Source: an uncultured bacterium (GTDB lineage Bacteria; Oederibacteriota; JAAXVQ01; JAUVAV01). Taken from it: DNA of 64,000 nucleotides. Shown here piece after piece: positions 14,322-47,121 of the stretch (its first letter is position 1; the number at the start of each line of letters is the position of its first letter). The notes under the pieces are model-generated. The model did not search any database. It was given only the letters and a program-made list of their open reading frames with translations, and was not told the DNA's origin. Both the position numbers and the translations under genes were made by a program. The DNA lies in the NCBI GenBank assembly GCA_963710755.1, contig CAVQBK010000013.1:128001-192000 (forward strand). Direction: 5' to 3'.

Positions 14322-17300
14322 TCATGCGGCTTGAAACGGGCCGCGCAGACGTCGCCGGGGATGACCCGGTATCGGCGGCCTCGCGGGCAAGATTATGGAT
14401 CTAATTTTTTCCAAAAGCAAGATCAAAGGTGTAAAGAACCTTGTCTTGTTCATGTTCGCCGTGGTCAGGCTGTGGTTGATCCAATTCTTCATCAGCTCGA
14501 TTAACCAAGTTAACCCAAGACTGCTTATCATCACGGCTGCCGCCAAACCAGGTCCTTGCCAGTGGCCATTCATTACCGCCAGAGCCAGATGTCCGGCAGC
14601 CCCCACAGCCAGCAGCAGCGTTAGTCCGCTGAAGGTCACCATACCCTGCATGGAAGACGGTCCTTTGAGGATGGCCTTCACCCACGACGGGATACCTACA
14701 TCCTTCTCACTGGGATTCAGGAAACGAAGAATCCAATCCATATCATCGGGTCCCAACCATTCTGCCTCACAAAGGGGTTTAAAATAATCGTTTTGCAATA
14801 ATTGGCGCAGGTCCTGGTTATGGTTTAAATACTGGGCTTTTCCGGCCCGGCCCATGTCCGCTATCACCACCGGCAGGATGCCGGCCAAGGCTGTCTTTTT
14901 GGTATCATGGGTGCTGCGCCAAACCACTTTGGCCAAATGATCACCCAGGGTTCTGACCAGAGACAGGTCTTGGCCCTGTATTAAATAGGTTTCTTCAAGC
15001 ACCGTTGTACGCAGCCGCTCCATTTCATGGAGCTGGTCCGTCACCACTTCCTCCAGACTTTTAGGGTGCGCCACCACCGAATTTCCGGCAAGCGCTTGAA
15101 AAGAAACCCGGTCCAGCTGCTCTGCAGATAGTAATGTGTGATTCCCTTGCATCACCGTAAAATATTTAAAATATCGGTTAAGCAATGCTTTGATGGCCGG
15201 GAACATGACCCGATCTATCCGCAAGGTTGCATAAGTCTTGTCGGTCATGATTTTGGTGCGGAGGAAATTCATTGCCGTAAAGGTAAACCCCGCGGGCACA
15301 ACGTCTCCCTTTGACAGAGGTTGGAGCACCATCTGACCGAGAGCCTTATCCAAAGTCAATACCATGCGCCCTACAAAGGCCCCGCGGTTTTTATCTGATA
15401 ATCGTTTCCACCTTACCGGTTTGCTCTTCATAAGGTAAAAGTCATAAATAGATCCCCTCATTTTGTTGACGACGAAATGCTGCCATGGGTTAAACACGTT
15501 GGCCAACCCATTCAAATCGGGATCAAAATCCTGCAGCGCATAGTGCTTCTCCAAATAATGGCGAATGGTGCGTTCCAGTGCCTTCCTATCCGCGGACTTG
15601 GCAGCAAACCTTGCCAGCACTAGTGGACGCATGGCTTCCTCTACACCGGGAAGACCGGCAAGTGCTTTAATAGCCTCGCGATTATTCAGGCCCAGTTGCT
15701 GCCATAAAGGGCCTTTTTGCGGATCCAGCAAGCTTTCCAGCGACATTTGCTGGAGTTCTAATTTTTGCTCCCCATTGATCAGGCTGGTCGTAGGGAGAAT
15801 GACGTTGAGCAGGATGTTGGCCAGGGCATGTTCCAGAAAGGGTTTCACGGTCTCGGGCTTTTGAGCGCGCTGTTCCAAGCCCTGCACGATGGCGGTCAGG
15901 ATCTGGTGTTGTTTTTCTTGTTCCACGCCATAGTATTGCAAGGTTAAAATAAATTGCCGTAGCCGCCCTGCTTCGTGAGCCATGACGCCTGGGGGAGAAA
16001 ACCATAGGGCCAGAGCCTGCTTCAAGTCATCGTCCTGCCCCGAAGCCAAGGACCAGATCCATTGATCCAGTGAAGTAAGAACCGGCGGCCCTTCCAAGGA
16101 AGAGGGATGGGCCCGGATTTGTTCCAACAACAGGCCATGGCAGGCACTCAAGATTTGCAAGGATTTTAAAGGTTGTTTCTTCGTCTCAGCCATCACCAGC
16201 CGGTACAGTTGGTCGGACAGCTCCATCAGTCCTTTTCCTTGAGGGGCTGTTAAACCCTGACGTGTGTCGAGGAGCAACGCCAATTTCCAAGCTAAGAGGT
16301 GATAATCCGCCAGCCTACGTACACCTAGCCGTTCCTGGTTTAATTGAGCCAGACGGGCTGCGGCTTCAGGGTCCAAGAGATCGGGTTCCTTGGCCAGAGT
16401 CTCCACCATCAGGCCGACCCAGCGTAAAGGAGTGGGCCTCCCTTCGGCTCTCACCTTTTGAAAAAAGAGATCACCAGGGGCAGCCATTCTCTGTAACATT
16501 TTGAGGTTTTGGTCCAATTCATGATTCTGGTCTTCCGGTGTATACGCCAGCCAGGCGGTTAAAAGTTTATAAAACAACAGGTTGTAGTCATCACCAAACC
16601 AATTTTCCAGCCGGCTGCGCATTTGTATAAAATCATCGAGCGATTCCAAAGGCCTGCGCTGAGCCTGCCGCACCAGATAATGGTTAAAAAAGGGTAAGTC
16701 CTTTGGGTTAATGGACCAGGGGACGGTTCCGCGCTTGAAAGGACGATTGAGCCAGGCTTCAGTCACTTCTGCAAGCAGTTGGGGCTGGTCTGAAAGGGTC
16801 AGGCCAAAATACCGGTGCAGGCTGCCTATGTAAACCTGCTGGCTCGGTGCGGCAGCCACCAGCAGGGATTTGAGGAGAGTCGATTTATCTGCTCGGGGCA
16901 GTTGCAGGTTAAAGTATTGCTGGAACCAGGGCCCAAAAAGACGGGGGCAACGGTCTATCATCCAGTAAGCCAGTCGGCGTTTGATTCGCCAGTCAGCTTG
17001 CTGCAGTTTTTTCTGGAAAGATTGCCAGCGGCGGTCATGCATACTGACATCCTGTAGGTTCAGAGTTTGCACATCCTTTTTCCATCGGGGCACCCAGTCG
17101 GGCTGAGGTTCAGATCCGCTGCTGGTCATCATACCTAATAAGCCCGGTATTAAGGTTGTAAAGTCATGGTCCATCACTGCCTTGATCGTATAGCCCAGCA
17201 CCACGGCAGCAGCTCCGGTCATCAGCAAGCGTCGGGATCCCCAGGCTTTCACAGCCAAGGCCTTCACCCCTTTCTTCGCAGTTTTCCCCAGAGGGCGCCA

Positions 17301-18761
17301 TGAAAAAGCGCGTTCCATCGCAGGGCGCACCCCTTTCCAGGCGCGCTGAACTTCTTCAGCCGAAGCCTGATAAATCCAAATCTTAAGGTGGCCCAGCCTG
17401 AGGACCATCTCCGGTTTGAGCACTGACGGCAAGTCCTTAACCGGATTGGCTTGAAAAACCACGAGCCGCCTTTGACCGTCAGGTAAAGTCAGCCGTGCCA
17501 TGCGCCAAAGCTCGCTTTGATTCTGACCGGCCATGGTTAAGAGATGCACCAAAAATCGAATCATCTCTTGAAAGCGTTCTTGTTCCCGGGTGAGCGTATG
17601 GCTTCCAGGCATGCTGGTTTTAGGCCCTTGATAAAAGCGCGTAAGCAAAGACAAACTTGCAGGATGCTTGTCCAGATAGGATGCCAGAGCCGTGGCTCTT
17701 TGGGTCAGAAGACCAAAATAAGGATTGGCTGCCTCGGGACGGGTTAGACTGGGGATGATGGAGATGGTGGAAAAACCATGTGCCTGCAAAGCTTGTAGAA
17801 AGTCTTGCGTATGAAATCCTCCGGTCACCACGACGGCCACGTTTTGTTTTTCTTCAGCCATGGTCCGCGCCCAATGGTCTGCAAAAACACGGCTCCGTTG
17901 GTGGGCGGTTGCATAAAAGGTCCTGGCCACCTTAAGTTTGTTATCCAAAAAGACGGGATCATTATTAACCAGCCAGGAAGTCTGCACTGCCCGGGGAAGG
18001 AGATGCAAGCAAGCCTTGATATTGAACCAATGCGGATGAGCCAGGAAGGTCGCCACGTCCTGTGGCGTGGCTGAAATAGTGAGCACTCTTTCCAGTACGT
18101 CCAAGCGTTGCTGCCATGGCTTTAAAACTGAAGACTTGGCATTACTGCCACCAGGAGCAAATTGATTTTGAAGCGCTTCTTTTAAATCCTGGAAGTAACC
18201 CAAGGTTTCGGTGGTTAACAAGGTACGTGCTTGCTGAAGATTGGCTTCATACAAAGCTTTATCTTCAAACCCTTTCACCATCAGAGGCGTGGGATTCAAA
18301 GTTGCACCATATTCAGCGCCTGTGATCAAGCCCTGCTGAAGCAAATAATCTGCGATTGATTGACGAATAACAGGATTGACCAGCCCGCGCAAAGGGGAGA
18401 GATCCAGATAATCCCAAGCGCCTTCCACGCCCACCAGCCTGACGCCTTGATGTTTGGCCAAATAACGGACCAGCCCGGCAATATGACGCTGTACCTCCTC
18501 CTGGCCATGTAGATCCTGCACCTGAATGATCAATGGCCCGGTGCCAAGGTGCCGGCTAACCACGGTGCCCAAGGCTTTGGGTACAGTGACAACCTTAGGA
18601 TCCAGGCTTGGCCGCGCCTTAGGAATAAAAGCCCAGCTCACTTCAGGACTAAGCCAGCTGAGCAACATTATCATGATAAGGCCAGCCCTTAGCTTCCTGT
18701 GGTGCCTGAACAGTGTCAAGGCAACGGGTTTGACCTTTCTGTGATGGGACAACCATTTCAT
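14322..18761 (-). CDS. Giant exported/membrane protein 1 of the QDLH-domain family (~1479 aa)
   Basis: Long intact ORF; probable start MKWLSHH (18761); signal peptide ending PEVSWA; QDLH, GVEG, GAEY, GGFH, NPYF motifs shared with the two other giants. Confidence 0.85.
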   Translation of the reverse strand: MKWLSHHRKVKPVALTLFRHHRKLRAGLIMIMLLSWLSPEVSWAFIPKARPSLDPKVVTVPKALGTVVSRHLGTGPLIIQVQDLHGQEEVQRHIAGLVRYLAKHQGVRLVGVEGAWDYLDLSPLRGLVNPVIRQSIADYLLQQGLITGAEYGATLNPTPLMVKGFEDKALYEANLQQARTLLTTETLGYFQDLKEALQNQFAPGGSNAKSSVLKPWQQRLDVLERVLTISATPQDVATFLAHPHWFNIKACLHLLPRAVQTSWLVNNDPVFLDNKLKVARTFYATAHQRSRVFADHWARTMAEEKQNVAVVVTGGFHTQDFLQALQAHGFSTISIIPSLTRPEAANPYFGLLTQRATALASYLDKHPASLSLLTRFYQGPKTSMPGSHTLTREQERFQEMIRFLVHLLTMAGQNQSELWRMARLTLPDGQRRLVVFQANPVKDLPSVLKPEMVLRLGHLKIWIYQASAEEVQRAWKGVRPAMERAFSWRPLGKTAKKGVKALAVKAWGSRRLLMTGAAAVVLGYTIKAVMDHDFTTLIPGLLGMMTSSGSEPQPDWVPRWKKDVQTLNLQDVSMHDRRWQSFQKKLQQADWRIKRRLAYWMIDRCPRLFGPWFQQYFNLQLPRADKSTLLKSLLVAAAPSQQVYIGSLHRYFGLTLSDQPQLLAEVTEAWLNRPFKRGTVPWSINPKDLPFFNHYLVRQAQRRPLESLDDFIQMRSRLENWFGDDYNLLFYKLLTAWLAYTPEDQNHELDQNLKMLQRMAAPGDLFFQKVRAEGRPTPLRWVGLMVETLAKEPDLLDPEAAARLAQLNQERLGVRRLADYHLLAWKLALLLDTRQGLTAPQGKGLMELSDQLYRLVMAETKKQPLKSLQILSACHGLLLEQIRAHPSSLEGPPVLTSLDQWIWSLASGQDDDLKQALALWFSPPGVMAHEAGRLRQFILTLQYYGVEQEKQHQILTAIVQGLEQRAQKPETVKPFLEHALANILLNVILPTTSLINGEQKLELQQMSLESLLDPQKGPLWQQLGLNNREAIKALAGLPGVEEAMRPLVLARFAAKSADRKALERTIRHYLEKHYALQDFDPDLNGLANVFNPWQHFVVNKMRGSIYDFYLMKSKPVRWKRLSDKNRGAFVGRMVLTLDKALGQMVLQPLSKGDVVPAGFTFTAMNFLRTKIMTDKTYATLRIDRVMFPAIKALLNRYFKYFTVMQGNHTLLSAEQLDRVSFQALAGNSVVAHPKSLEEVVTDQLHEMERLRTTVLEETYLIQGQDLSLVRTLGDHLAKVVWRSTHDTKKTALAGILPVVIADMGRAGKAQYLNHNQDLRQLLQNDYFKPLCEAEWLGPDDMDWILRFLNPSEKDVGIPSWVKAILKGPSSMQGMVTFSGLTLLLAVGAAGHLALAVMNGHWQGPGLAAAVMISSLGLTWLIELMKNWINHSLTTANMNKTRFFTPLILLLEKIRSIILPARPPIPGHPRRRLRGPFQAA

Positions 18762-18856
18762 AAGATGCAAATCGACACCCCAAAAGTCAAGTCGCCTGGG
18801 ACATGTCCTGCCGGTAATTGGCCGGGCAAGGACAGTTGTACCCAAAGGTGCATCCC

Positions 18857-18885
18857 ACTATAACATCAGAAAAAAGGTGCATCAA
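18857..18885 (-). promoter_or_regulatory. Sigma70-type promoter for giant protein 1
   Basis: Minus strand TTGATG-17 nt-TATAGT with extended TG. Confidence 0.55.
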
Positions 18886-20367: not shown

Positions 20368-20419
20368 CCCTGGTCACTCATCCAAAAGGAATGGATGAAT
20401 TAGCCCTTGGCCAAGGGGG

Positions 20420-21100: not shown

Positions 21101-22003
21101 ATGATGAACATTATTGATGGAAAGTTACATTTATCCGAACATCAAAGCGTTGATATCGTTTTGGGCGATTACAATCAAAGAATTAAGCTCTATGGTCTTA
21201 CCGGCACGGACCTCAACCAGGAGCGGCTGGAATGGCTGTGCCGCCAACAAAGCACCCTGGGTCATCCTTACGGCAAAATTATCGTTTATGCCCTGCCCGG
21301 CGGGGAAATGGACTGGCTGGCTATGGGTTTTGTAAAAGAAGGGGTAATTGGGGGTTTTTTTCGTAATCAGACCGACGCGGTTATCAGGTCTTATTTTATC
21401 GACCCCGACCGGCGCAGTGATGAGTTGCAAGCCAAACACGACAAATATGTGCAAATCGCCAGGGATAAAGCTTCTATTACGCCCGCCTGTCCAAAGGGCT
21501 TTACCTGCCATTTGGCCCAGCCCGAAGATGCTCCGGCAATTTCAGCGCTTCTAAAGCGGACTTTCAAGGATTACCCCTCCTCCCTGGAAGCGGATCACCT
21601 GCAAAAAGCAATGGCCAACCGGCACAACCACTTCCGTCTCATCCGCAACCACCGGCAACAGCTGGTGGCGGCCATGTCCGCTGAAATCGACCACGAACGA
21701 AGCAGCGCAGAAATGACGGATTGCGCTACGGACCCTGACTACCGCGGCTTGGGTCTGATGGCCTGCCTGCTTGGCCGTCTTGAGCAAGACTTACATAAAC
21801 AATTTGGCATCATCAATTTCTATACCTTGGCCCGGGCGGACATGCTCAGCATCAATTGCGTGTTCAGCAAACTGGACTACCATTACACGGGACGGCTGGT
21901 CAACAACTGCCGCATGCCCAATGGATGGGAGTCCATGAATATCTGGTGCAAAAGGTTATCACCAAAGGAGAACCATGGATCATCGCAGCCAGCGTCAAAA
22001 TGA
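21101..22003 (+). CDS. ablB: Beta-lysine N-acetyltransferase (GNAT)
   Basis: [43 protein letters not shown]; overlaps the aminomutase gene. Confidence 0.85.
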
Positions 22004-23300
22004 AATATCCAGTCAAATCAATGAGCATTCAGCCGCTACCAATGCCTCCCATTGGTATGACTGGCAGTGGCAATTGCGCCATTGCGTCAGAAATATGGAT
22101 CAATTTGAACACTTATTGGGGGTAACCTTTCCTGAAGAAAAGATGCGTCAACTAAAAGAAGCGGCCGCCAAATTTCCCATTTCCGTGACCCCTTACTATC
22201 TGTCTTTAATTGATACCACCGATCTGGAGAACGACCCGATCTTCAAGCAATCTTGTCCTTCTTCCCTGGAATTACAGACCATGCATCATGATTTGGCTGA
22301 TCCGCTTTCAGAGGACAAAGACAGCCCGGTCCCAGGCATCACCCACCGCTATCCGGACCGGGTGTTGTTTTTGGTTTCCAATACGTGCACCATGTATTGC
22401 CGGCATTGCACCCGCAAACGCAAGGTGGGTGAAAAAGACTCCATCCCCTCAAAAACAGCGGTCAAAAAAGGCCTGGAGTATATCCGGTCCACGCCGGCGG
22501 TACGCGATGTGCTACTCTCCGGCGGCGATCCCTTTTTGCTCCCCGATGATTATCTGGATTGGATTTTAACGGAATTACGCAAAATCAAACATGTGGAAAT
22601 TATCCGTATCGGCACCAGGACCCCGGTGGTACTTCCCTATCGCATCACCGACAATCTGGTGAACATGCTTAAACGCCATCACCCTCTGTGGATCAACACC
22701 CATTTTAACCATCCCCGGGAAATCACCAAATCATCGAGCATAGCCCTGGCCAAATTGGCTGATGCCGGCATCCCTCTAGGCAACCAGTCGGTGCTGCTGG
22801 CCGGGGTTAATGACTGCCCCAGAATCATGAAGCGGTTGATGCAAAAGCTGGTCCAGAACCGGGTGCGTCCCTATTACATGTATCAATGTGATCTTTCGGA
22901 AGGGCTGAATCATTTCCGTACGCCTGTGGGCAAAGGCATCGAAATTTTGGAGAGTCTTATTGGTCATACCAGCGGGTTGTGCGTACCGACGTATGTTATT
23001 GACGCACCCGGTGGCGGCGGCAAGATTCCCATCATGCCTCAGTATCTGATTTCCTGGTCCACCAATAAAGTGATCCTGCGTAATTATGAAGGCGTGATCA
23101 CCACTTATCGCGAGCCCGATTCGTACGAGCCCTTTTTCTGCAACCGCAATTGCGACCACTGCCAGTTACAGCTGAAGTTGGACCCCAAAGAGGATCCCGA
23201 AACCGTGGGGATCGAAAAACTGCTGGCCGATTACGATGAAACCATTGCCCTCGTTCCCAGCAACACGAGCCGTCTGAAACGGCGGCGCCGGAAGAGTTGA
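21975..23300 (+). CDS. ablA: Lysine 2,3-aminomutase (radical SAM, KamA/AblA)
   Basis: [37 protein letters not shown]. Confidence 0.95.
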
Positions 23301-28465: not shown

Positions 28466-29044
28466 TTACTGCCAATGATAATTGATGACACATGAGGCAT
28501 GGCCATCGGCCACGCATTTAGGATGATCCCAGACCAGGTTTTGTGCGCCCGCAAATTCCAGAACCGCGCTAGTCCATCCGATAGTGCCCAAACAACCCGC
28601 CCGTCCGTAGACGTCGGCCCCCACCAATTCAAGGGACAACATCGTCGCGCTTTTATAGATGATATTGACCAGCCCGGCATTGAAATAATGCCTCCAGGCT
28701 GAGGGCAATTGACCGGCCACAAAGGCGGGAGAACCGATTTTTAAAAATAATTTCATAAACGTGGAAAAATCTTTTTGGGCGACAAATCGGGCGCCTTGGA
28801 TAAAGGCGTCCTCCTTTCCCTCGCCCCAGAGACGGTTGCAGACCTCATAAAGATGCAGATAGAGTTCCGCCGGATACCAGGCCACTTGCGGCATTTTTCC
28901 AACAGACCAAAGCTCTTTTTCCGAAGGTGATAATTCTCCTAAGAAATCTTTCAATCCCGTTCGGCCATATTGGCTGATAATCCATTCCCTGGTGCCGCTG
29001 AATATTAATCCTTTGACTGATCCTCTGCCCTTATCCGTTGTCAT
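28466..29044 (-). CDS. DUF2378/TIGR02265-like (V4R/HNOB-related) protein
   Basis: VKGLIF, WYP, WRHYF..G, C-terminal C...G...C.....W pattern; start MTTDKG after GAAGGAG. Confidence 0.65.
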   Translation of the reverse strand: MTTDKGRGSVKGLIFSGTREWIISQYGRTGLKDFLGELSPSEKELWSVGKMPQVAWYPAELYLHLYEVCNRLWGEGKEDAFIQGARFVAQKDFSTFMKLFLKIGSPAFVAGQLPSAWRHYFNAGLVNIIYKSATMLSLELVGADVYGRAGCLGTIGWTSAVLEFAGAQNLVWDHPKCVADGHASCVINYHWQ

Positions 29045-29630
29045 GATTGCTCCTTCAAATGACTTAGGGTTAGTATCGTATTGGATAGGCAGGAAATTAA
29101 ATGGACAGATGGCCAGGCCGAGGAAATCGAGCTTGAAACTTACAAGCAATTTGGGGATGCCGGAGATAATGAAGGGGTAAACTCAAGAGTTCTTAGGTTA
29201 TAAATGGCTGGAAGTGTAATAACTCAAACTTGATCTGACAAGTAATGTCCACACCGTTGAGAAAACAGTGCCGCAGTAGGATGAGCTTTTCATGTTGATT
29301 TTATTTTGTCAGGTCTATTTCGAAAGACAACTGTGATTGTGGGTGGCCTCAGCTTGCGAAACGATGATAAAATTAATCCTTTTTGCAAATACTTTTCCAA
29401 AAGATCTAACGGAGCAATTTTTAAAACAAAAAAGATAAATCTTGGAACTTAATGCCTTCCTGTAATAAGCATGCTACGATGAAAATGCAGCACTGACCAT
29501 AATTGTGAAATAAATTTCGGATTATCACACTTGAAGTCTGGAGTCGCGGCACCATGATAAGGCAAAGTTCAAGGGGTGAGCCCTATCACAGCAATGTTTG
29601 CGGCAAGAATACTGATAAAAGCGTTTATGC

Positions 29631-36263: not shown

Positions 36264-36568
36264 TGTGCATCCTTAAATTTTCAGAAAACAGCAATCACTG
36301 ATTACTATACCATCATTAGCGGCAGCTATTACCATAAAACATAATTATTATTTTTAAAAAATAATATATATAACACTTGTGTTTTATTTTAGAACACTAA
36401 TAAATTAATTTTTTAGTGTAAATATTCGGAATATATTTTGTCATATTTATAATTATATGCTTTATTTTTTAATGTTTTATTATCAACTTAAAAATTGACA
36501 TCTAAAAATTTCCACTTGCCCCTTTTTTTCAACAGTTATAATTTAACCTTCTCAATTATTGGGAATAA

Positions 36569-39189: not shown

Positions 39190-42100
39190 CTACACACCTT
39201 GCAACGCCGATTGCTGAGGTTTGCGCCGCATAATGGTGTTTACCTTTCGGTAATCCCAAATAACATCCGTTCCTAAATGCTTGTCTAATCCATCCAGAAT
39301 AATACCGCCGACCGTTTTCATCCCCTTTTCCCACATTATGTTTGGCAGACGCAATGGCCTTCCTTGATAGATTGCCAATCGTTGTGAGGTCAGAGGCGCG
39401 CTCAAGACCAAAAGTTCCTGCGCCTTAAACATGAAGTCGCCATCAAGTTCATCAGCATGGTTCTGTATGATCCGCGCCAGGCCCCGCACCAATTCCTCTC
39501 TCCTCTGCGCCAAGCTCAACCCAGGCCGGGCTTGCAGTTGCGCCAAAAGGCCTTGACGGGGGTCAAGCACCAATTTGTCAAACGGTCCGGCCGCGCCGGC
39601 GCTGACAAGTACGGCGGCGGTCTGCCAATAAGTTCTTCCGTCAACACGCAAGATCACCGCGGCCAGCAACCGATCCAGGAAAGCCCCGCCCAACCACGGG
39701 CCGGTCATTTCGTTCATGAGTATCCGCTTATAAATCCGGGACCGGAAATAATGCTGCGGACCTAAGCTTTCTTCACGGGAGCGCTGCTTGCCTCTTTGCT
39801 GAATCAAGCTTTTCCATGATTGAATGGAAGTCATAAGCAAAGGGCTGAATACACCTATTATCCAGCCGGCAACGTTGATAATAGCTTTAAATCCTCTTCG
39901 GCGATAGGGCGTGTTCAAACGCCGGCTCAGCGACGCTCCATTGGCAACAGTTCTGCCGGTCCGCCGTTCTTTCCACCAGCGCACCAGCACCCACCCCACC
40001 ACCAGCGCAGCCGTGGCAACCAACAGCCAGGCGTTGGGCTCCAAGCCCCAGGACAGAGGACCGTCAAGCGGCCCGGCCAGCAGAGAATTGCTATGGCCCA
40101 AGCCCAACAAGCCTGAACCCAGAGAGGCCAGGAGGATGGCAGCAGAATGGCCATTGCCTGGAAATCGGATAACATTCTTCGGATTCGTTTCAGGTCCTTC
40201 CGGCCCGTCTTGGCCACTTCTGTAAGTCAAAAACAATAAATGTTTCGGCAGCCCAAATAGGTTCAATTGTTTGTTTGCTAAATCAATGCCAACATTCGAA
40301 TATTTTTGGTACTCCAGGGTTGACGTCATTCCATTTTGACGGATAAGTTTGCCAATCTTAGCGACCATTTGTTTAAGAAATGCTTCACGTTTGCCTTGGT
40401 TACGGATGGCAAATATTTTAAAGGTGGCTTCAATATAGTCGGAAGGATATTCTTTTTTCGTCTCCAATTCCGCGTTGATCATGGTTTCCAATTCCTCATC
40501 CGTGCTCTCCGTAAGCAGGATGAGGGTGTTCAGGGCTTCTTCTCTGTCTTTGTCAAGGATGTCTTTTTTCTGTTGCTGCATATCCCGGAGTTTTTTAGCA
40601 TAGGTCAACCGTAGCTGCTCGTCTCTGGTCCGTCCCAGCAACTCAAGGATAAGATTAATCAATGCGTTCAATTTTATTTCGGCAAAGCTCTCCGCAGAAC
40701 CAGCGTCAACAAATGTATTTAATTCATCCATCGCATGATGCAACGCAATGGCCGGACGCTTTCTAAAGTTTGTTCTGATCTCTCTTTCCGCCTCATTGGG
40801 GTTATGAGTCCAATGATGCTTCAGTCGGATATTTTTGCCAATAGGAGCTGCCCTGTCCAGTGCTTTTTCACCTTCTTGTTCAATTGCTGGTTTTTTCTCA
40901 CCTTTAACATCTAAACCCAAAGCGGGTTTCATATCATGTTCATATTCATCAAAAGGCTTGTCTTGACTATTTCCCGGTGATTTCTCAGACTGTTCAACGA
41001 TGACCGGTTTTAAAAAAGCCAGATAATCAGGCAATTTTTCAGACACGGCTCGTGCATTTTCCATATCCACTCCACCATCGTGATACCACTCAAGGATCGA
41101 CGCTAGGGTAATTGGTGTTCCCGAAATCATAACTTTTATTTTTATCAATATTTCACCAAGCATGCGTTGCCTAAGGGCATCATCTATTAACGCCAACGCT
41201 TTGTAAGCCGAATCCAACAAGGCCATCGGTTGGGCAAGGGCAATAGAGTCGAGCTTTTCTTGAATTTCAGTCTTCAACTGCTCGTCCTTAAGGCGGCTTA
41301 AAGTAATGATCAGGTTAAGATCGTGTTGGCCGGTGAGAATACCTTCGTGCTTAAGATAACCACTGAGTTCCGTGGCAAAGTGAAGGCGCCTGCCATGATT
41401 CACTGTTTGGCCAAGCAGCTTCAACATATAGGTAATCAGCCCCCTCAGCTCTCCTTCTGCTTGGTCAGCAAGGGTTTCATGTTCAGCTTTTTTAATATCA
41501 GCCAATACATAGGTCAGAACTTTTCCCGGTTCTTGTTTGAATATCTCATCATAGTAAGCTTTATAGAACCCAGGGCCGTTCTCCCAATTCACATGGGATG
41601 CCAATCCATTTGACGACGTCTCAATTCTTTCAATTTTAATATCATCGCCGGCCGCTTCCACATCTTTGTATTTATCCACCTCCAACAACTCTTCTATTGT
41701 CTTACCATTAATCCTAATCGGTGGCAAAGCGATAGCCCATTCTTGCGCCCGCTGCTTAAAAAAGTGATATTGTGCTCGGCTTTGTCTGTCCATGGTCACA
41801 CTAATCTGGCGGGAAGGATGAAGATCAATTAAGTAGATTCTCATTAACGGCCACAATTGTTGAAGACCTTCTTGTTGAGCCCCTGAGGGCAAATGAGGAT
41901 ATTCGCTTATAAAATTATTGATGACCTGGTTTAATTGGAGTCCTGCCTTGAGACGTTCCATGTAAGTTTCATGGTAAAGCCCTCGCAACAGGTTGAGCTC
42001 TTGCTCTAAAGGCAAGTAGTGAAGGGTTGGAAGATTAGCACGATCTATATTAAATCGTTGATAAGTTCCTATGAGACGATCGGTAAAGATTTTTACAAAA

Positions 42101-45100
42101 TCATGGTTGTATGGCTTTTCCAAATAAAAAAGCATATGCCAGCCCAATTTCATTAGCCGGTCCAATTCAACATCTGTCGAAGGAGCGGGCACCAAGTTCA
42201 GTGCCATTTCATAATACTCCGCCAAGGGGACCTGGACTTGCGATTGCGCCACTTGGCCTTCGTCTATTTCCTGACCTATGCCCGCGATGGTTTCAAAAAC
42301 CGGCTCAAAGGTATAATGTTCTTGATCGTGATTTTGCGCATTGCCTTGAGCCAGGTTATTTCCCAGCCGCTTTTTACGAACGTAATCAATGCCCATGCGA
42401 ATTAGCCAAGCACCAAGGATGGCCACGCCCCCAAGCCAGGTCAGCCCTGCAGTGGAAACTAAGATCCAATCCACACCGGCAGCCATGGAAACCGGACTAT
42501 AGAAAAGCCCGCTTAGGCCAAGTAGCGCGGTCAGGCCCACCGGCAAGGCCCATTGCATCAGACGGTCGCCGTAAGGATGCTTTTCTTGATAGCCCTCTAA
42601 TAACTCTTTTAGGGTTTCGGTTTTCCAAAAATAATGTTCAGGCAAATTAAAGACTCTATCCAGCTGGTCTAAATAAAAAAAGCGGGCATGGTCATTTTTG
42701 ATCTGCAGACCTAGCAAAAACAATTTGCCCAGTTCAAAGGGTTTAATTTTTACTCTTTTTCTTTTTTTAAGACGGTCTTCGGTCAATTGTTTTAATTTTC
42801 GTTTAATAATTTCATTTATAATTTCTTTCATCTCCGACCGCAGTTCTGCCGGCACCTTAAGTTCCACTTCTCTTCCCGCCGATTCCGATCCTTTGAGTTC
42901 AACCGGGCCGACCATGTTGTTCATGGTTTTACTGAGATGATTCATAAGCTGCTGTTGATCAGCGTTCATTAAACGTTTCAAGGTATCATAGTGCCCTTTA
43001 TTTTCTTTCCGGTATTGCGGCGAACAATCTTTCCAAGTAAGTTCAATATTTTCTTTGACAAAATCCAGGCCTTGAATGGTGCCGACATTTTGCCGGGGCG
43101 GTAAATCTTGATCGAGTGCGGGGGGCAGGATCGCCAGAAAATTCATCCAGGCCAACCAGGCTTCCATTCTATTTTCGGTCTTGACCACAGAAGTGATTTT
43201 GACGGCAATGTCATTCAAACTCTCAATGATGATGCCATAAAGCTCAAAAAATCGTCTTTGGATACCCCGGTATTTTAACAAATCTTCGTAAAGCGCGCTC
43301 AGGGTATGAGTGATCGCAGACGCATCGATCAGGTAAATGCTGCTGTTCTCCATCTCCGATGCGGCAATGGACTCCAAGGGGGTGTTATGCAATTGCAGCG
43401 GCCGCGGGGGCTGGCGCAAATGAAAGGTTATGCGGCTATAGGTCTGGTACTGTCTTATAACTCTTTCCAGCCAGGCTTGACGCATATGTTTGTTGTCCAA
43501 ATGCTCAATATGCCACAGGACGTGCTGCCAATTTATCAACAGGTCTTTTTCAATTTCGGGTTTTTCATGATCAACCGTTTTTTCAAACTCAGACAGTAGG
43601 AGGTCATTATGGTGTAACTGAAAGGCAATATAATCATAACGCCTTTCGTCAAGCTTTCCGATTTTTTTAAAGAACGGTGTTAACAAGTCCACCTCAGCGG
43701 TTGTCGTTTGATCCCGGTTTGCATTATTGTAAGTGACATTGATAGACGCCATTAAGCGCTTAGCCAAAGGCTGATCCGCCGGATTGTTTGCATAATTGAC
43801 CAACATCCATCCCAAGGCAAGCAACCGCTTCAGCCTCCCTTCCAGGTCAGGATATTTAAGGGTAAGGTGAAAAGCATCTTGTAAAAGGGTGTTCAAGTCT
43901 TGCATAGCTTGGATATTGGATGCATCCGAACTTGTATAAATCGGATTGACTACAGCATCCATCTCAAGCATTAAATGATTAAAATAAGCACTTATATTTT
44001 TTCCTGCCCAAGAACGCCATGCATCGGTAAGTTGCTTCGAGGCTTCGATGTCCTGCCAAATCGATTCGGGCATAGTGGCCAGCAACTTCAATAGATCATC
44101 GTCACTAACCTGATTTGGGAACATCTTGGACAACAATGAAATCTTTTGGAAATCTTCTTTGACTACTGCCCAATAGGTTTTCCAAAAAATGGCTTCCAGC
44201 GATTCTCCGTCGATGAGCATAGCCTGGCATTCCTGGAGGGGCATATTAACTACCAGCTTCATCAAATCCTTCAGTTTGGCTGAACTTGTTCTCTTCCTCT
44301 TAAATTGCTTGAGAAGAGCATCCATCTGGCTACGATTAAGGCTTTTAAGATTAAGTTTAAGAAAAAAGGACATTAAATTGAAAAGCAGCGCTTCTCGAGG
44401 TCCCCTATCAGTAATATTTTTCCCCAGGCCTTGATCACCAATGATCCACCGTTTTGCCGGAGGTGACGACCAATTATGACCAATATGGAGTGCTGTATGA
44501 ACACCAAAGTAAACCACGCCAAAGGTGCTGGTTAGGTGATATAACATCAATTCCGGCGCCTGCCAGATCACTTCTGCCAAAGAAGCATGCGGTGCTACAC
44601 TCACACCCATAAGTGACAGCACCAGCAAGCCCCAGGTGATCCACCACGTTCTGGTGCCGGCTTGGTTTATGGCTTTCACCACATCCTCACCTTTGGCGCG
44701 ATGAAGGTCGCCAAAGAAATTCTTGGCGAAAAGATTATTTAATAGCCTGGAAAACAATATCAGCAGCGGCACGGCCAGCCAAGGATCGTTGATCTGAAAT
44801 GTACTGTGGAAAAAATGCTCCACAAGGACACTGGTCTTGGGCAGGAACGCGATAGACAGGCCTGTAACCATCAGCGTAATTACACTCGACTCAGCAATGG
44901 GAAGAAGTACCATGGTTACCAATTTTTGGCCCCAATTTTCATAAGGTGTAACACCTGGAGCCGGGCTTCTTAATAATTCCGTCAACTCGCGATTGGTGGG
45001 CCGGTTTCCCCACCAATCCATCACCGCCAAAGCTATTATAATCGCGGCGGTGATTACCAAGGACGGCCAGAAATCAACAACCGCATGCCAACTCCAGGAA

Positions 45101-47121
45101 CCATGATAAAAAGTGATGGGAAGGAAAACAGATGCCATCTTGGTGACGGAAGCGGACAACGGCTTTTCCCGCCACCATTTGTCAACGGCGCTCCCTATCA
45201 CAACCCAAGGCCGTCTTGCCTTTTGTCTGATCTGTTTAAGCTGCTGTTCCACCGCTCCTTCTTGAGCGCTACTGATGACTGATGCGGCCAGGCCATGAGC
45301 TTCAAATACATACGGCAATTGAGTAAGGGGTCTGAGCTGCCACGCCGGTCCGGCCACCAGGCATAAGTTGGCATTGCCCATAGGCAACACCATGCTTTGG
45401 CCTGATTTGACGGCAGTAAACAAGCGCTGCAGTTGTTGAGGCGCAACAGCAAAGTCCTGTGCCTGAGCACCCACAAGTAGGCGCTCATCCATCGTGTAAT
45501 GGTGTTGCAGGCTTTTCAGATCTTCGCTGAGTTGATTTTCTGATTGAGCCTGATGTAACCGCTCCAGCATGGCCTGTTGCCACAGCAGTAATTGCTGCAT
45601 CGCTTCAAGGGACTTAATATTGCCTCTAAGCCCTTCCGGCAATTGCGCCATCATGGTTTGCAAGGTTTCTTCGGATAAAGGCTGAGTGGAAGTTATCCGG
45701 CTGGTTCTGGGCAGTTGAAAATTTCTGATTGGCGGGGCGATTAATTTTTGGTTTTTCAGCAACAGCGTTTCGAGGGGCGTTTTTTTATCCCGGATCAATT
45801 GAAAATAGGGATTAATCAAATCCTGATGGGTTAGCCTGGGCACAACGGAAATATAGGAAAAGCCGGCCTCTTTCAAGGCTGTTTGAACATCTTGGGCATG
45901 ATAGCCGCCGGTAATGAGTACTGCTGCCTGCTGATGGTGTTGTTCCATCATGGCGCTCAGATTGGTCACAAAGTTGCCGCTACGCTGATCCGCCTCTTTA
46001 TAGAAGCGGGCTACATCATCCAAATAGCTCTGCAAAGACGCGGCCTCCGGCATCATGAAGTCCGTCTCTTGCGGCGCCCATTGAGCCAGGGATTTCAAAA
46101 GCACAGCCACGCGGTAGTGATCTTGATGATTTATAAAGTCATGGACTTCACGGCGATTAGCCGCAATGGACAGTAATTTTTCCATCACATCCAGGTGTAA
46201 GCCAACCTCATTGATGGCTGCTTCTTGCGGGGTTGAAATAAGCGCTTTGGTCAGGGCTTGATCCAAGCGGCCGATCTCTTCCTGAAGCCGATCAGGATTA
46301 ATGCCGGTCACATAAGATGATTTTTGTTGTTGTAGATAACGGAAAATCTGGGAAAAAGGCGCAAGATCCAGATCCTGTTTTTTAGCCATCTGCCACAGTT
46401 GACCCGCATAGTCCGCCTGGGAACTTCGACCGTCTTTGTATGATTGGGTCATCTGTTCTAAACCAAGCAAGGGTTGATGGTAAAAACGCTTTTTGATGCT
46501 GCGCAGCATTTCTTTTAAATCAGCACAGTACCCCAGGCTTTCACTATTAAGAAAAGATCGCGCAGTCTGTAGATTTTTAAGGTAAAGCTCTTCGTTTTCA
46601 ATGCCTTCCAAAAACAATGGTTGCGAAGACAAGGCGCTGAAATATTCAGCACCCGAAATCAACCCTTGTTTCATCAAATAGTGACCCACCGCTTTTTTAG
46701 CCCGCGCCAGGGGAAAGGTGCCCAGCTTGCTGGTGTTGATTAAGCGGCCTGAGCCTTCTATACCAATGAGATTGATGCCCAGCCTTTGCGCAAGATCCTT
46801 CAAAATATTGGCAATATTTGATTGCACCTCATAATGACAATGCAGGTCCTGGATATGAATGACCACACCCCGGCTGTTGGGCGCCTCATAGGCTTGTTCC
46901 ACCGCGCCAAACTGGCGCGGCACGGTCACCACTTTCTGGTTCATGATTAAATAAGGCTGGCCCGATTGGAGATAGGTTCCCGGATCTACAGCCCAGGACA
47001 CTAAGGGCATAAGCATGAGCAGGCTCAACAGCATGGACAGGCTGGTTTTAAAAAGGTGATGACCAGGCAAAATCCGTTGTAATAAATAGTGTTGTTGCAT
47101 ATCGCGCTTTTTATTTTCCAT
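39190..47121 (-). CDS. Giant exported/membrane protein 3 of the QDLH-domain family (2643 aa)
   Basis: Signal ending PLVSWA; QDLH, GIEG, GAEY, GGYH, NPYF; several TM blocks; two pairs of internal repeats. Confidence 0.9.
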   Translation of the reverse strand: MENKKRDMQQHYLLQRILPGHHLFKTSLSMLLSLLMLMPLVSWAVDPGTYLQSGQPYLIMNQKVVTVPRQFGAVEQAYEAPNSRGVVIHIQDLHCHYEVQSNIANILKDLAQRLGINLIGIEGSGRLINTSKLGTFPLARAKKAVGHYLMKQGLISGAEYFSALSSQPLFLEGIENEELYLKNLQTARSFLNSESLGYCADLKEMLRSIKKRFYHQPLLGLEQMTQSYKDGRSSQADYAGQLWQMAKKQDLDLAPFSQIFRYLQQQKSSYVTGINPDRLQEEIGRLDQALTKALISTPQEAAINEVGLHLDVMEKLLSIAANRREVHDFINHQDHYRVAVLLKSLAQWAPQETDFMMPEAASLQSYLDDVARFYKEADQRSGNFVTNLSAMMEQHHQQAAVLITGGYHAQDVQTALKEAGFSYISVVPRLTHQDLINPYFQLIRDKKTPLETLLLKNQKLIAPPIRNFQLPRTSRITSTQPLSEETLQTMMAQLPEGLRGNIKSLEAMQQLLLWQQAMLERLHQAQSENQLSEDLKSLQHHYTMDERLLVGAQAQDFAVAPQQLQRLFTAVKSGQSMVLPMGNANLCLVAGPAWQLRPLTQLPYVFEAHGLAASVISSAQEGAVEQQLKQIRQKARRPWVVIGSAVDKWWREKPLSASVTKMASVFLPITFYHGSWSWHAVVDFWPSLVITAAIIIALAVMDWWGNRPTNRELTELLRSPAPGVTPYENWGQKLVTMVLLPIAESSVITLMVTGLSIAFLPKTSVLVEHFFHSTFQINDPWLAVPLLILFSRLLNNLFAKNFFGDLHRAKGEDVVKAINQAGTRTWWITWGLLVLSLMGVSVAPHASLAEVIWQAPELMLYHLTSTFGVVYFGVHTALHIGHNWSSPPAKRWIIGDQGLGKNITDRGPREALLFNLMSFFLKLNLKSLNRSQMDALLKQFKRKRTSSAKLKDLMKLVVNMPLQECQAMLIDGESLEAIFWKTYWAVVKEDFQKISLLSKMFPNQVSDDDLLKLLATMPESIWQDIEASKQLTDAWRSWAGKNISAYFNHLMLEMDAVVNPIYTSSDASNIQAMQDLNTLLQDAFHLTLKYPDLEGRLKRLLALGWMLVNYANNPADQPLAKRLMASINVTYNNANRDQTTTAEVDLLTPFFKKIGKLDERRYDYIAFQLHHNDLLLSEFEKTVDHEKPEIEKDLLINWQHVLWHIEHLDNKHMRQAWLERVIRQYQTYSRITFHLRQPPRPLQLHNTPLESIAASEMENSSIYLIDASAITHTLSALYEDLLKYRGIQRRFFELYGIIIESLNDIAVKITSVVKTENRMEAWLAWMNFLAILPPALDQDLPPRQNVGTIQGLDFVKENIELTWKDCSPQYRKENKGHYDTLKRLMNADQQQLMNHLSKTMNNMVGPVELKGSESAGREVELKVPAELRSEMKEIINEIIKRKLKQLTEDRLKKRKRVKIKPFELGKLFLLGLQIKNDHARFFYLDQLDRVFNLPEHYFWKTETLKELLEGYQEKHPYGDRLMQWALPVGLTALLGLSGLFYSPVSMAAGVDWILVSTAGLTWLGGVAILGAWLIRMGIDYVRKKRLGNNLAQGNAQNHDQEHYTFEPVFETIAGIGQEIDEGQVAQSQVQVPLAEYYEMALNLVPAPSTDVELDRLMKLGWHMLFYLEKPYNHDFVKIFTDRLIGTYQRFNIDRANLPTLHYLPLEQELNLLRGLYHETYMERLKAGLQLNQVINNFISEYPHLPSGAQQEGLQQLWPLMRIYLIDLHPSRQISVTMDRQSRAQYHFFKQRAQEWAIALPPIRINGKTIEELLEVDKYKDVEAAGDDIKIERIETSSNGLASHVNWENGPGFYKAYYDEIFKQEPGKVLTYVLADIKKAEHETLADQAEGELRGLITYMLKLLGQTVNHGRRLHFATELSGYLKHEGILTGQHDLNLIITLSRLKDEQLKTEIQEKLDSIALAQPMALLDSAYKALALIDDALRQRMLGEILIKIKVMISGTPITLASILEWYHDGGVDMENARAVSEKLPDYLAFLKPVIVEQSEKSPGNSQDKPFDEYEHDMKPALGLDVKGEKKPAIEQEGEKALDRAAPIGKNIRLKHHWTHNPNEAEREIRTNFRKRPAIALHHAMDELNTFVDAGSAESFAEIKLNALINLILELLGRTRDEQLRLTYAKKLRDMQQQKKDILDKDREEALNTLILLTESTDEELETMINAELETKKEYPSDYIEATFKIFAIRNQGKREAFLKQMVAKIGKLIRQNGMTSTLEYQKYSNVGIDLANKQLNLFGLPKHLLFLTYRSGQDGPEGPETNPKNVIRFPGNGHSAAILLASLGSGLLGLGHSNSLLAGPLDGPLSWGLEPNAWLLVATAALVVGWVLVRWWKERRTGRTVANGASLSRRLNTPYRRRGFKAIINVAGWIIGVFSPLLMTSIQSWKSLIQQRGKQRSREESLGPQHYFRSRIYKRILMNEMTGPWLGGAFLDRLLAAVILRVDGRTYWQTAAVLVSAGAAGPFDKLVLDPRQGLLAQLQARPGLSLAQRREELVRGLARIIQNHADELDGDFMFKAQELLVLSAPLTSQRLAIYQGRPLRLPNIMWEKGMKTVGGIILDGLDKHLGTDVIWDYRKVNTIMRRKPQQSALQGV

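What the first reader, a model, noticed from the sequence alone, without database searches (positions are those of the whole stretch)
14322..47121. Three giant paralogs with a constant QDLH head and unrelated payloads: candidate modular export/effector system
Seen: ORFs 14322..18761, 29631..36263 and 39190..47121 all begin with a long basic/His-rich leader and a signal ending P-x-V-[ST]-W-A. Each then has a 370-470 aa domain with co-linear motifs: QDLH..EVQ..IA (18507, 35964, 46840), G[VI]EG, G..[ST]GAEY, G.E...LY, A.QRS..F, GG[YF]H, P.LT, NPYF (17715, 34911, 45802). After NPYF the three become largely unalignable by eye and alternate TM blocks with soluble modules. Together they take about 19 kb of the window, all on the minus strand, each behind its own AT-rich upstream region. 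Inference: a constant head with swappable cargo is the logic of polymorphic toxin/effector families. I recall similar heads on giant proteins of Omnitrophota/Elusimicrobiota-type host-associated or predatory bacteria, but cannot verify that here.
Basis: partly seen in the sequence, partly recalled or inferred. Interest (0 to 1): 0.92.

Follow-up and report, generated by a model that had tools for sequence, protein, structure and literature searches.

The report
Giant membrane proteins with hydrolase head
The three huge genes belong to a family of 31 large membrane proteins in this uncultured bacterium that all begin with the same exported, enzyme-like domain and then carry different cargo, a design whose purpose is still unknown.

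Summary
The three minus-strand ORFs share a signal peptide and a 330-430 aa head. Their tails show no BLAST similarity to each other. The genome holds 31 such genes, about 80,000 aa or 7.0% of its DNA.

All 15 genomes searched in this order carry the head, at 6-31 copies each. None of the other 84 genomes of the phylum do.

Two AlphaFold models place the head in the TIKI / erythromycin-esterase / ChaN superfamily. It keeps that superfamily's acid-x-His, Glu (+28), Arg and His catalytic set. No Pfam, NCBIfam or PDB sequence model detects it.

The tails alternate transmembrane blocks with nucleotide- or sugar-using enzyme modules: HD-GYP, PPDK-like, glucan and trehalose enzymes, GGDEF and kinases. 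No toxin domain, recurrent neighbour gene or adjacent secretion system was found. Same-genus orthologues keep their tails.

This is not a polymorphic toxin system. It is the head-bearing form of the giant multi-enzyme membrane proteins described in Omnitrophota. The head looks like an obligatory, payload-independent periplasmic hydrolase, and its substrate is unknown.

The parts
14322..18761 (-). Head-bearing gene 1: 1479 aa from the ATG at 18761. The open frame also allows a TTG start at 18845. No Pfam family matches anywhere in the protein.
   Evidence: The tail has no match outside this genome in 14 related genomes.
18630..18761 (-). Basic/His-rich leader plus hydrophobic segment ending PEVSWA|F. 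Probable Sec signal peptide, residues 1-44.
   Evidence: Read from the sequence. The motif P-x-x-x-[WF]-[AST] precedes the head in all 31 paralogues.
17637..18629 (-). Head domain with a TIKI/Ere/ChaN-like fold. This is the naturally short form, with a smaller helical insert.
   Evidence: The AlphaFold model has pLDDT 81.0 and pTM 0.74. Foldseek's top 7 hits are all TIKI/Ere-superfamily entries, best 3b55 at E 2.9e-5. VIA-align puts EreC first at Z 9.8.
29631..36263 (-). Head-bearing gene 2, 2210 aa.
   Evidence: A full-length orthologue exists in the same-genus genome G023 at 57-58% identity over the tail.
36105..36263 (-). Leader and signal segment ending PYVTWA|F, residues 1-53.
   Evidence: (P48 and W52 are invariant).
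34824..36104 (-). Head domain, residues 54-480. Candidate catalytic set: D98-x-H100, E128, R391, H419. A helical insert spans about residues 184-390.
   Evidence: The motif is compared with passages of PMC6254334.
33309..34181 (-). Polytopic transmembrane block, about residues 695-985, roughly 8-9 hydrophobic segments.
   Evidence: Read. The hydropathy scan peaks at residues 769-958. Part of this block recurs in other giants.
32475..32885 (-). HD-GYP-type HD domain, residues 1127-1263. The translation shows an HD pair and the string HHEELNGNGYP.
   Evidence: Pfam HD_5 at 5.2e-7 and HD at 9e-5. NCBIfam gives a weak match to a c-di-GMP phosphodiesterase model. The motif was read; the HD-GYP signature itself is recalled, not taken from a call.
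39190..47121 (-). Head-bearing gene 3, 2643 aa.
   Evidence: The orthologue in G023 has a head at 80% identity and tail pieces at 52-80%.
46990..47121 (-). Leader and signal segment ending PLVSWA|V, residues 1-44.
45712..46989 (-). Head domain, residues 45-470.
   Evidence: (E 9.8e-267 to the three-sequence profile).
44572..45084 (-). First transmembrane block after the head, about residues 680-850.
   Evidence: Hydropathy scan. Sequence.
39193..39834 (-). C-terminal module of about 210 aa. It is also found at the C-terminus of the genome's 9474-aa head protein and in two other genera.
36264..36568 (.). 305-nt upstream region of gene 2 at 22% GC.
   Evidence: The promoter-like hits here are no more frequent than in shuffled sequence.

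Best explanation
The three genes belong to a lineage-expanded family of large to giant inner-membrane proteins. Each is made with a Sec-type signal peptide. This places a 330-430 aa N-terminal domain of the TIKI / erythromycin-esterase / ChaN superfamily in the periplasm. That domain keeps the full acid-x-His, Glu, Arg, His catalytic set, so it is most likely an active peptidase or esterase.

The rest of the chain alternates transmembrane blocks with soluble modules. Many of these are ordinary nucleotide- or sugar-dependent enzymes and are therefore probably cytoplasmic.

Every independently translated member carries exactly one head at its N-terminus, whatever follows. Modules are reshuffled, repeated, fused or split between genomes while the head stays. 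The head therefore most likely serves a generic, payload-independent role at the outer face of the membrane, such as processing, maturation or envelope remodelling.

Shown here: the family and its size, the fold, the conserved residues, and the modular tails.

Inferred: signal-peptide cleavage, membrane topology, catalytic activity, and the generic role of the head.
For: Family size. 34 profile matches resolve to 31 genes. They total 80,453 aa, or 7.0% of the genome.

Distribution. 15 of 99 phylum genomes carry the head: all 10 of family f1, all 4 of f2, and the window's own genome. None of the other 84 do. Five relatives carry 6-11 head genes with open frames up to 12,551 aa. Summed frames are 49,609-69,903 aa in three of them, which is 5.0-5.8% of their genomes. 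There are 9,456 cluster representatives at E<=1e-3. The head starts within the first 103 residues in all 150 listed.

Fold.
- Model 1: pLDDT 82.3. The five best of 48,161 chains are ChaN 2g5g (Z 9.4), EreC 6xcq (9.3), HopBA1 5t09 (9.0), 2qgm (9.0) and 2rad (8.2).
- Model 2, from a different paralogue: Foldseek's top 7 are all from this superfamily, best at E 2.9e-5 with probability 1.00. EreC scores Z 9.8.
- PMC6254334 (passages read) names these same entries as TIKI-superfamily members. It defines a 2His/2Glu motif plus a conserved Arg, with His to Glu at +28 in RRSP and Bcr135.

Catalytic residues. The head has D98-x-H100, E128 (+28), R391 and H419, invariant in 18 of 18 sequences. In 17 sequences that include 14 distant relatives at 24-33% identity, H, E, R and H are 17 of 17 and the acid is 16 of 17. 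The spacing is 28 in 24 of the 27 paralogues my pattern matched, out of 31. R...GG[FY]H is present in 31 of 31.

Signal. P-x-x-x-[WF]-[AST] follows a hydrophobic stretch in all 31. Distant relatives have ordinary A-x-A type signals.

Payloads. The Pfam families found are HD, PPDK_N with PEP-utilizers, GH77, alpha-amylase, TreT/GT1, NTP_transferase, GGDEF, cytidylate kinase, LMWPc, transglutaminase core and AAA. Relatives add SIS, HAD, FBA, FBPase, Pkinase, NUDIX and others.

Module shuffling. Modules of gene 2 recur, some 4-6 times, inside 8.6-12.4 kaa ORFs of other genera.
Against: - No sequence-profile method links the head to any TIKI family. Pfam at E<=10 gave one weak ChaN hit in 18 heads. 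PDB hmmsearch found nothing relevant. hhalign against a 4-sequence TraB profile gave probability 1.1%.
- Fold Z scores of 8-10 are only modestly above the tool's stated background of 7-8. One unrelated methyltransferase reaches Z 8.3.
- The residue equivalence rests on motif order and spacing. I could not obtain a residue-level superposition.
- Transmembrane segments come from a crude hydropathy scan. The sidedness of the payload modules is undetermined.
- The 2026 Omnitrophota preprint reads the enzyme content of one giant protein as periplasmic.
- No transcript or protein evidence was obtained.
- The generic role of the head is an argument from architecture alone.
- ChaN and PMT show that TIKI folds can be non-catalytic.
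Confidence: 0.6

Rival explanations
1. Sensor reading. The periplasmic head is a ligand-binding or substrate-sensing domain, like ChaN, which binds haem. It controls cytoplasmic output modules across the membrane, making these oversized signal-transduction or regulated-enzyme proteins.
For: The layout of signal, periplasmic domain, transmembrane block and cytoplasmic module is that of a receptor. Gene 2 carries an HD-GYP-type domain and another paralogue carries GGDEF. Relatives carry HATPase_c, CheR and Pkinase. ChaN is among the best structural matches.
Against: The full catalytic set is invariant even in relatives at 24-33% identity. Non-catalytic TIKI members such as PMT lack it. Many payloads are plain metabolic enzymes rather than signalling outputs. 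31 receptors sharing one sensor type would all sense the same class of ligand.
Confidence: 0.17
2. Polyprotein reading. The giant ORFs are translated as one chain, threaded into the membrane, and cut at periplasmic loops by the TIKI-like head, in cis or in trans. This releases separate membrane and soluble proteins, a protein-level substitute for operons.
For: TIKI-family members include site-specific peptidases that act at membranes: TIKI on Wnt and RRSP on Ras. There is one head per ORF regardless of length. The number of heads per genome varies from 6 to 31 while total family length stays at 50-80 kaa, as if units fuse and split freely. West-Roberts et al. raise self-cleavage for N-terminal C39/S8 peptidases of Omnitrophota giants (passage).
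Against: A 4-mer and 5-mer enrichment scan of 24 tails found no recurrent short motif that could mark cleavage sites. No proteomic evidence exists. Small members (616-1,479 aa) would hardly need cutting.
Confidence: 0.13
3. This is a polymorphic toxin/effector family in which the head is a trafficking domain for a dedicated export route and the tails are swappable toxic cargo.
For: Heads are conserved and tails are unrelated. A TIKI-fold domain (RRSP) and the related PMT domain occur in bacterial toxins. The genome has secretins and many TolC-like genes.
Against: No toxin family appears among the Pfam hits of the 29 (of 31) genes scanned. No recurrent adjacent small gene was found. Neighbours are housekeeping genes. 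Internal transmembrane blocks run throughout. Orthologues in the same genus keep their tails and their synteny. No T6SS sheath gene was found. In the known toxins the TIKI fold is cargo, not the constant head.
Confidence: 0.05
4. Cell-surface attack or attachment machinery, as proposed for Omnitrophota giant proteins. Here the head and glycan-active modules would act on the envelope of a prey or host cell.
For: Distant head relatives carry Omnitrophica, Elusimicrobia and Endomicrobia labels, and Omnitrophota is the commonest Atlas neighbour. Glycan enzymes are among the payloads: GH77, alpha-amylase and a glucoamylase-like domain. West-Roberts et al. argue for this role (abstract and passages).
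Against: Most payload families use ATP, NTPs or NDP-sugars and would be useless outside the cell. No adhesin, dockerin or lectin repeats were found in the 29 genes scanned. The genome is 3.4 Mb and 98% complete with ordinary housekeeping neighbours. I did not test the organism's lifestyle.
Confidence: 0.05

Closest known systems
Erythromycin esterases and Bcr135/Bcr136 (PDB 6xcq/6xcs, 3b55, 2rad, 2qgm), the Ere branch of the TIKI superfamily
   Same: They are the best structural matches for both head models. Both have an alpha/beta core with a large helical insert. The His-Glu pair is spaced 28 residues apart, as in Bcr135 H85/E113.
   Different: There is no detectable sequence-model similarity. 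Ere enzymes are stand-alone soluble proteins of about 400 aa. The head is exported and fused to 1-13 kaa of membrane protein. The substrate is unknown.
TIKI / TraB / PrgY membrane-tethered peptidases
   Same: They belong to the same superfamily. The catalytic domain sits on the outer face of the membrane and is followed by transmembrane helices. That architecture is recalled from Bazan et al. 2013, which is cited in PMC6254334 but which I did not read.
   Different: Pfam TraB_PrgY_gumN finds no head in the 12 head-bearing genomes it searched. hhalign gives probability 1.1%. The C-terminal extensions here are 10-100 times longer and carry enzymes.
Giant 'multi-enzyme' membrane proteins of Omnitrophota (West-Roberts et al. 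2023 preprint; Nielsen and Lui 2026 preprint, class 1)
   Same: Both have a signal peptide and/or many transmembrane helices, and tiles of metabolic and signalling Pfam families: PPDK_N, NUDIX, HAD, HATPase_c, GNAT, PGM, glycan enzymes and HD. Both are mostly Pfam-dark and sequence-unique. Distant head relatives carry Omnitrophica labels.
   Different: Those papers describe N-termini as lacking identifiable domains apart from C39/S8 peptidases. The 2023 paper does not contain 'erythromycin', and its single word-start match to 'chan' was not among the relevant passages. The 2026 preprint contains neither 'erythromycin' nor 'TraB'. The window's genes are 1.5-2.6 kaa, below those papers' 10-30 kaa thresholds. 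No SecA-like domain was found here.
Polymorphic toxins and MARTX toxins
   Same: Both combine a constant part with variable modules. MARTX toxins contain a TIKI-fold module, RRSP.
   Different: In MARTX the TIKI fold is one of the cargoes, whereas here it is the constant head. No toxin domains, no immunity-like neighbours and no secretion-system linkage were found.

Membership tests
TIKI / Ere / ChaN superfamily (fold level) | Alpha/beta domain with a parallel beta-sheet core flanked by helices | tested here: met
   Two independent models were made. In an all-against-48,161 search, the top five hits for model 1 and five of the top six for model 2 are ChaN, EreC, HopBA1 and Bcr135/136-type entries, at Z 8.2-9.8. 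Foldseek gives E 2.9e-5 and probability 1.00. Z is only moderately above background.
TIKI / Ere / ChaN superfamily (fold level) | 2His/2Glu catalytic motif: acid-x-His after the first strand, Glu about 28 residues later, and a second His after a later strand (PMC6254334 passages) | tested here: met
   D98-x-H100, E128 and H419 are invariant in 18 of 18 sequences. In 17 sequences including distant relatives, H, E and H are 17 of 17 and the acid is 16 of 17. The positions follow strands 92-97, 124-127 and 410-415 of the model. The equivalence is by order and spacing, not by superposition.
TIKI / Ere / ChaN superfamily (fold level) | Conserved basic residue near the active site (RRSP R4001, 29 residues before the second His) | tested here: met
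   R391 lies 28 residues before H419. It is invariant in 18 of 18 and 17 of 17. R...GG[FY]H is present in 31 of 31 paralogues.
TIKI / Ere / ChaN superfamily (fold level) | Hydrolytic activity (peptidase or esterase) | not testable with these tools
   This needs an enzyme assay.
Pfam families TraB_PrgY_gumN (PF01963), Erythro_esteras, Cofac_haem_bdg (PF04187) | Score above the family's curated cut-off | tested here: not met
   No family reached its cut-off in 18 heads scanned at E<=10; there was one hit to PF04187 at E 0.023. PF01963 found nothing in the 12 head-bearing genomes searched. The head is therefore a separate, unmodelled family within the superfamily.
Polymorphic toxin systems | C-terminal toxin domain | tested here: not met
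   No toxin family appears among the Pfam hits of the 29 (of 31) genes scanned. Most of the tail length has no Pfam hit, so an unknown toxin fold is not excluded.
Polymorphic toxin systems | Cognate immunity gene immediately downstream | tested here: not met
   All-against-all BLAST of ORFs within 4 kb of 29 paralogues gave no family recurring beside more than 4 different paralogues (largest cluster: 5 ORFs).
Polymorphic toxin systems | Tails differ between close relatives while the N-terminus stays constant | tested here: not met
   Same-genus orthologues keep the tails at 57-58% (gene 2) and 52-80% (gene 3), against heads at 68% and 80%. The tail of gene 1 was not found in the 92%-complete same-genus genome.
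Omnitrophota-type giant multi-enzyme membrane proteins | Signal peptide and/or multiple transmembrane helices with many distinct enzyme families along one chain | tested here: met
   compared.
Omnitrophota-type giant multi-enzyme membrane proteins | Length of at least 10,000 aa (catalogue threshold of the 2026 preprint) | tested here: not met
   The window genes are 1,479-2,643 aa and the longest in this genome is 9,459 aa. Head-bearing open frames of 10,037-13,678 aa occur in related genomes.

The most novel reading that the evidence does not exclude
The TIKI-like head is the obligatory N-terminal processing enzyme of a widespread class of 'membrane polyproteins'. Each giant ORF would be a protein-level operon: it is threaded into the inner membrane once and then cut in the periplasm by its own head into separate enzymes and membrane units. 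Genomes could then fuse or split such ORFs freely, provided each piece keeps a head. That would explain 6 heads of about 10 kaa in one genus against 31 heads of about 2.5 kaa in this one.
Probability: 0.13. Interest if true: 0.9.

Novelty: new variant of a known kind. Interest (0 to 1): 0.7.

Why it matters
Giant membrane proteins of uncultured bacteria are a recognised puzzle. In the papers I could read, their N-terminal regions are described as generally lacking identifiable domains.

This finding gives a large subset of them a recognisable handle. They share a conserved, exported domain that appears catalytically complete and has a known fold. At least 9,456 protein clusters are marked by one profile.

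That makes several questions testable:
- what the head hydrolyses;
- whether the giants are processed;
- which side of the membrane the enzyme modules face;
- how such genes fuse and split.

In this lineage the family takes 5-7% of the genome, so it must matter to the cell.

Tried and rejected
- Sequence links for the head: Pfam and NCBIfam on the whole proteins, Pfam at E<=10 on 18 heads and a PDB profile search found nothing usable. PF01963 found no head in the 12 head-bearing genomes it searched, out of 61 genomes in all. hhalign of the head alignment against four TraB proteins of the same phylum gave probability 1.1%. That TraB profile is thin.
- Conserved partner genes: none found.
- A shared 'P-x-A-E-S' transmembrane motif seen by eye in genes 2 and 3: my first script had an indexing error. 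The corrected scan matched it in 2 of 29 tails. separately shows that genes 2 and p19 share a transmembrane-block module. The motif is not general.
- Recurrent short motifs as possible cleavage sites: none stood out. The background set included unfiltered ORFs.
- Alignment of the 300 residues after NPYF: only about 25 conserved residues, then a weak strand-like element.
- Expression: no RNA holder listed. I did not lay reads.
- Promoter scan upstream of gene 2: hits were no more frequent than in shuffles.
- Literature: 134 papers mention FCPU426. I read the listing of 20 and passages of one, and none treats these proteins. No paper holds Omnitrophota with TIKI or 'giant protein' with 'erythromycin esterase'. 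Supplementary files of the two giant-protein preprints were closed and may list N-terminal domains I could not see.
- The 'longer' protein search reaches only 5,000 aa. I therefore could not test whether the 30-147 kaa Omnitrophota giants carry the head.
Full report
**Observation**

The three minus-strand ORFs exist as described. The 18761 ATG is the likely start of the first; the open frame also allows a TTG at 18845.

Each begins with a K/R/H-rich leader and a hydrophobic segment ending PEVSWA, PYVTWA or PLVSWA. The tails of the three do not match each other by BLAST at E<=1e-3. A hydropathy scan shows hydrophobic blocks alternating with long soluble stretches.

The upstream regions are AT-rich to differing degrees: 22% GC before gene 2 and 41-42% before the other two, against a window mean of 49%. 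The fourth long ORF in the window, 56148..60590, is an unrelated Ig-like surface protein.

**Scale**

A profile of the three heads finds 34 matches in the window's own 3.44-Mb, 98%-complete genome. Two genes matched in two pieces and one match is a 47-aa fragment, which leaves 31 genes. Two apparent in-frame stops lie upstream of the real starts.

From their first ATG the 31 proteins total 80,453 aa, or 7.0% of the genome. They range from 616 to 9,459 aa. The genes are scattered over the contigs. In the window their neighbours are housekeeping genes, including a V/A-type ATPase operon, RtcB, LeuA and an Asp/Asn-tRNA synthetase.

Of the 36 open frames of at least 2,000 aa in the genome, 22 carry the head.

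**Distribution**

Among 99 genomes of the same GTDB phylum, the head occurs in the window's genome and in all 14 other genomes of its order. It occurs in none of the other 84.

A pattern scan of 185,579 species genomes found 246 relatives. The 80 kept all lie in MAGs titled candidate division FCPU426, Ca. Firestonebacteria, Ca. Goldiibacteriota or 'uncultured bacterium'.

Against 1.84 billion cluster representatives, the 18-sequence profile finds 9,456 proteins at E<=1e-3 and 5,654 at E<=1e-30. In all 150 listed, the match starts within the first 103 residues.

More distant relatives (24-33% identity) carry NCBI labels of Omnitrophica, Elusimicrobia and Endomicrobia. The nearest ESM Atlas clusters are unnamed and mostly from Omnitrophota.

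**What the head is**

No sequence library recognises it.

Two AlphaFold models were built from different paralogues. Gene 2 gave pLDDT 82.3 and pTM 0.70. The naturally shorter gene 1 head gave 81.0 and 0.74. Both show a parallel-sheet alpha/beta core with a helical insert.

In a Foldseek-independent search of 48,161 chains, the five best hits for model 1 are ChaN, EreC, HopBA1 and two Bcr135/136-type proteins, at Z 8.2-9.4. For model 2 the same set gives Z 8.2-9.8, with one unrelated methyltransferase at 8.3. Foldseek's first seven hits for model 2 are all from this set, the best at E 2.9e-5 with probability 1.00. RRSP and PMT appear lower, at Z 6.2-6.7.

Passages of PMC6254334 list exactly these entries as the TIKI superfamily. 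They define its catalytic 2His/2Glu motif: RRSP E3900, H3902, E3930 and H4030, and Bcr135 H85 and E113. They also describe a conserved basic residue, R4001.

The head carries D98-x-H100, then E128 exactly 28 residues later, as in both references. It also carries R391 and H419, 28 residues apart against 29 in RRSP. Each sits just after a predicted strand or in the preceding helix. These residues are invariant in 18 of 18 aligned heads. In 17 sequences that include 14 distant relatives, H, E, R and H are 17 of 17 and the acid is 16 of 17.

I conclude that the head is a new, unmodelled family of the TIKI/Ere/ChaN superfamily and probably an active hydrolase. The caveats are moderate Z scores and no residue-level superposition.

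**Export signal**

All 31 paralogues have a hydrophobic segment ending P-x-x-x-[WF]-[AST], followed by F or L and often an acidic residue. Distant relatives have ordinary A-x-A type signal peptides.

The positively charged leader and this c-region fit a Sec signal cleaved after W-A. That would put the head in the periplasm. The genome encodes Omp85/BamA-type proteins, so the organism is diderm. Cleavage and sidedness are inferred, not shown.

**Tails**

Pfam on 29 of the 31 genes finds an HD-GYP-type HD domain in gene 2. Other paralogues carry:
- PPDK_N with PEP-utilizer domains (four paralogues);
- GH77, alpha-amylase, a glucoamylase-like domain, and TreT/GT1;
- NTP_transferase, GGDEF, cytidylate kinase and LMW phosphatase;
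- a transglutaminase core, an AAA ATPase and an M50-like stretch.

In the two batch scans of the other paralogues, 11 of 18 pieces and 4 of 9 genes have no Pfam hit. Of the three window genes, only gene 2 has hits that pass Pfam's cut-off. Relatives add SIS, HAD, class II FBA, GlpX, GH130, methyltransferases, CheR, NUDIX, HATPase_c, PGM, M20/M48 peptidases, Pkinase and transaldolase.

These are cytoplasm-type enzymes that need nucleotides or sugar phosphates. None is a toxin family.

**How the tails evolve**

Gene 2 has a full-length orthologue in the same-genus genome, at 57-58% identity over the tail and 68% over the part of the head that aligned (241 residues). It lies on a contig that also holds the end of gene 3's orthologue, so synteny is kept. 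Gene 3's orthologue has a head at 80% and tail pieces at 52-80%. Gene 1's tail was not found in any of the 14 relatives.

In other genera, modules of gene 2 reappear inside ORFs of 8.6-12.4 kaa, some repeated 4-6 times. The last three modules are in the same order as in gene 2. The HD part also matches many ordinary proteins of 390-790 aa.

Three nearly complete relatives have only 6-10 head genes, but with frames up to 12,551 aa. Their summed frames are 49,609-69,903 aa, about 5.0-5.8% of each genome by my arithmetic on rounded genome sizes. So the family's total size is roughly similar across genomes while its partition into ORFs differs greatly, and every ORF keeps one head.

Heads within this genome are no more alike (31-44% identity) than heads from different genera. 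The paralogues are therefore old.

**Interpretation**

The toxin/effector and export-system reading is not supported, for these reasons:
- no toxin domains;
- no recurrent neighbour gene;
- no secretion genes next to the window's three genes;
- no T6SS sheath gene;
- internal transmembrane blocks;
- conserved orthologous tails.

The closest described phenomenon is the giant multi-enzyme membrane protein of Omnitrophota. I read passages of the 2023 preprint and section 8 plus passages of the 2026 preprint. Topology class and Pfam repertoire overlap. However, the 2023 paper says the N-terminal regions generally lack identifiable domains, apart from C39/S8 peptidases. My term searches found no Ere or TraB domain in either text.

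**Mechanism**

I commit to the following. These are Sec-targeted inner-membrane proteins. Their first domain is a periplasmic TIKI-type hydrolase with a payload-independent role, followed by membrane blocks and mostly cytoplasmic enzyme modules (confidence 0.6).

The rivals are:
- a sensor role for the head (0.17);
- self-processing of a membrane polyprotein (0.13), which is also the most novel reading;
- a polymorphic toxin family (0.05);
- prey or host attack machinery (0.05).

No expression data could be obtained, because no RNA holder was listed.

**Verdict**

This is a real and striking gene family. It is ordinary neither in size nor in architecture, but it is a variant of a recently recognised kind rather than a new export or toxin system. 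Its most useful new element is the identification of the head.

Noticed in passing
window 55204..60590 (-): A 1480-aa Ig-like repeat protein has a C-terminal FlgD_ig-like domain. It is followed by a 314-aa ORF with weak PorV/DUF5723 matches, both below Pfam's cut-offs. This may be a type IX secretion cargo and porin pair.
   Followed up: partly
window 28466..29149 (-) and G000:C3:514926-516089: The 227-aa Pfam-less ORF just downstream of gene 2 has two paralogues just upstream of another head gene, p19. Gene 2 and p19 also share a transmembrane-block module. It may be a small partner protein for this subfamily.
   Followed up: no
G000:C3:412738-423663, C13:366379-372909, C1:314880-318350, C3:1275807-1279058: Head-less open frames of 1,084-3,642 aa, with 2-12 hydrophobic segments by a crude scan, abut or overlap the 3' ends of head genes p21, p6, p4 and p3 in another frame. 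They could be continuation genes, frameshifts or assembly errors.
   Followed up: no
G000 contigs C11, C12 and C4:146561-150532: Head genes p5, p8 and p9 are near-identical over parts: 63% over 837 aa, and 89-100% over 56 aa. Two of them sit on 9-kb contigs and are cut by contig ends. This suggests a recent duplication that breaks the assembly.
   Followed up: no
window 21101..23300 (+): A GNAT acetyltransferase gene overlaps the start of a lysine-2,3-aminomutase gene. From memory, this pair makes the osmolyte N-epsilon-acetyl-beta-lysine.
   Followed up: no
window 5948..13652 (-): A complete-looking V/A-type ATPase operon (A, B, D, I and c subunits plus DUF2764) lies directly downstream of gene 1 and a MarC-family gene.
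   Followed up: no
G000 whole genome: There are 113 open frames of at least 1,000 aa in a 3.44-Mb genome. They include head-less frames of 8,131 and 6,830 aa.
   Followed up: no
G031:C2:58871-97589: A 12,450-aa head gene is followed immediately by a second head gene of 2,613 aa. One module, matching residues 868-1213 of gene 2's tail, is repeated at least five times in the larger gene.
   Followed up: partly
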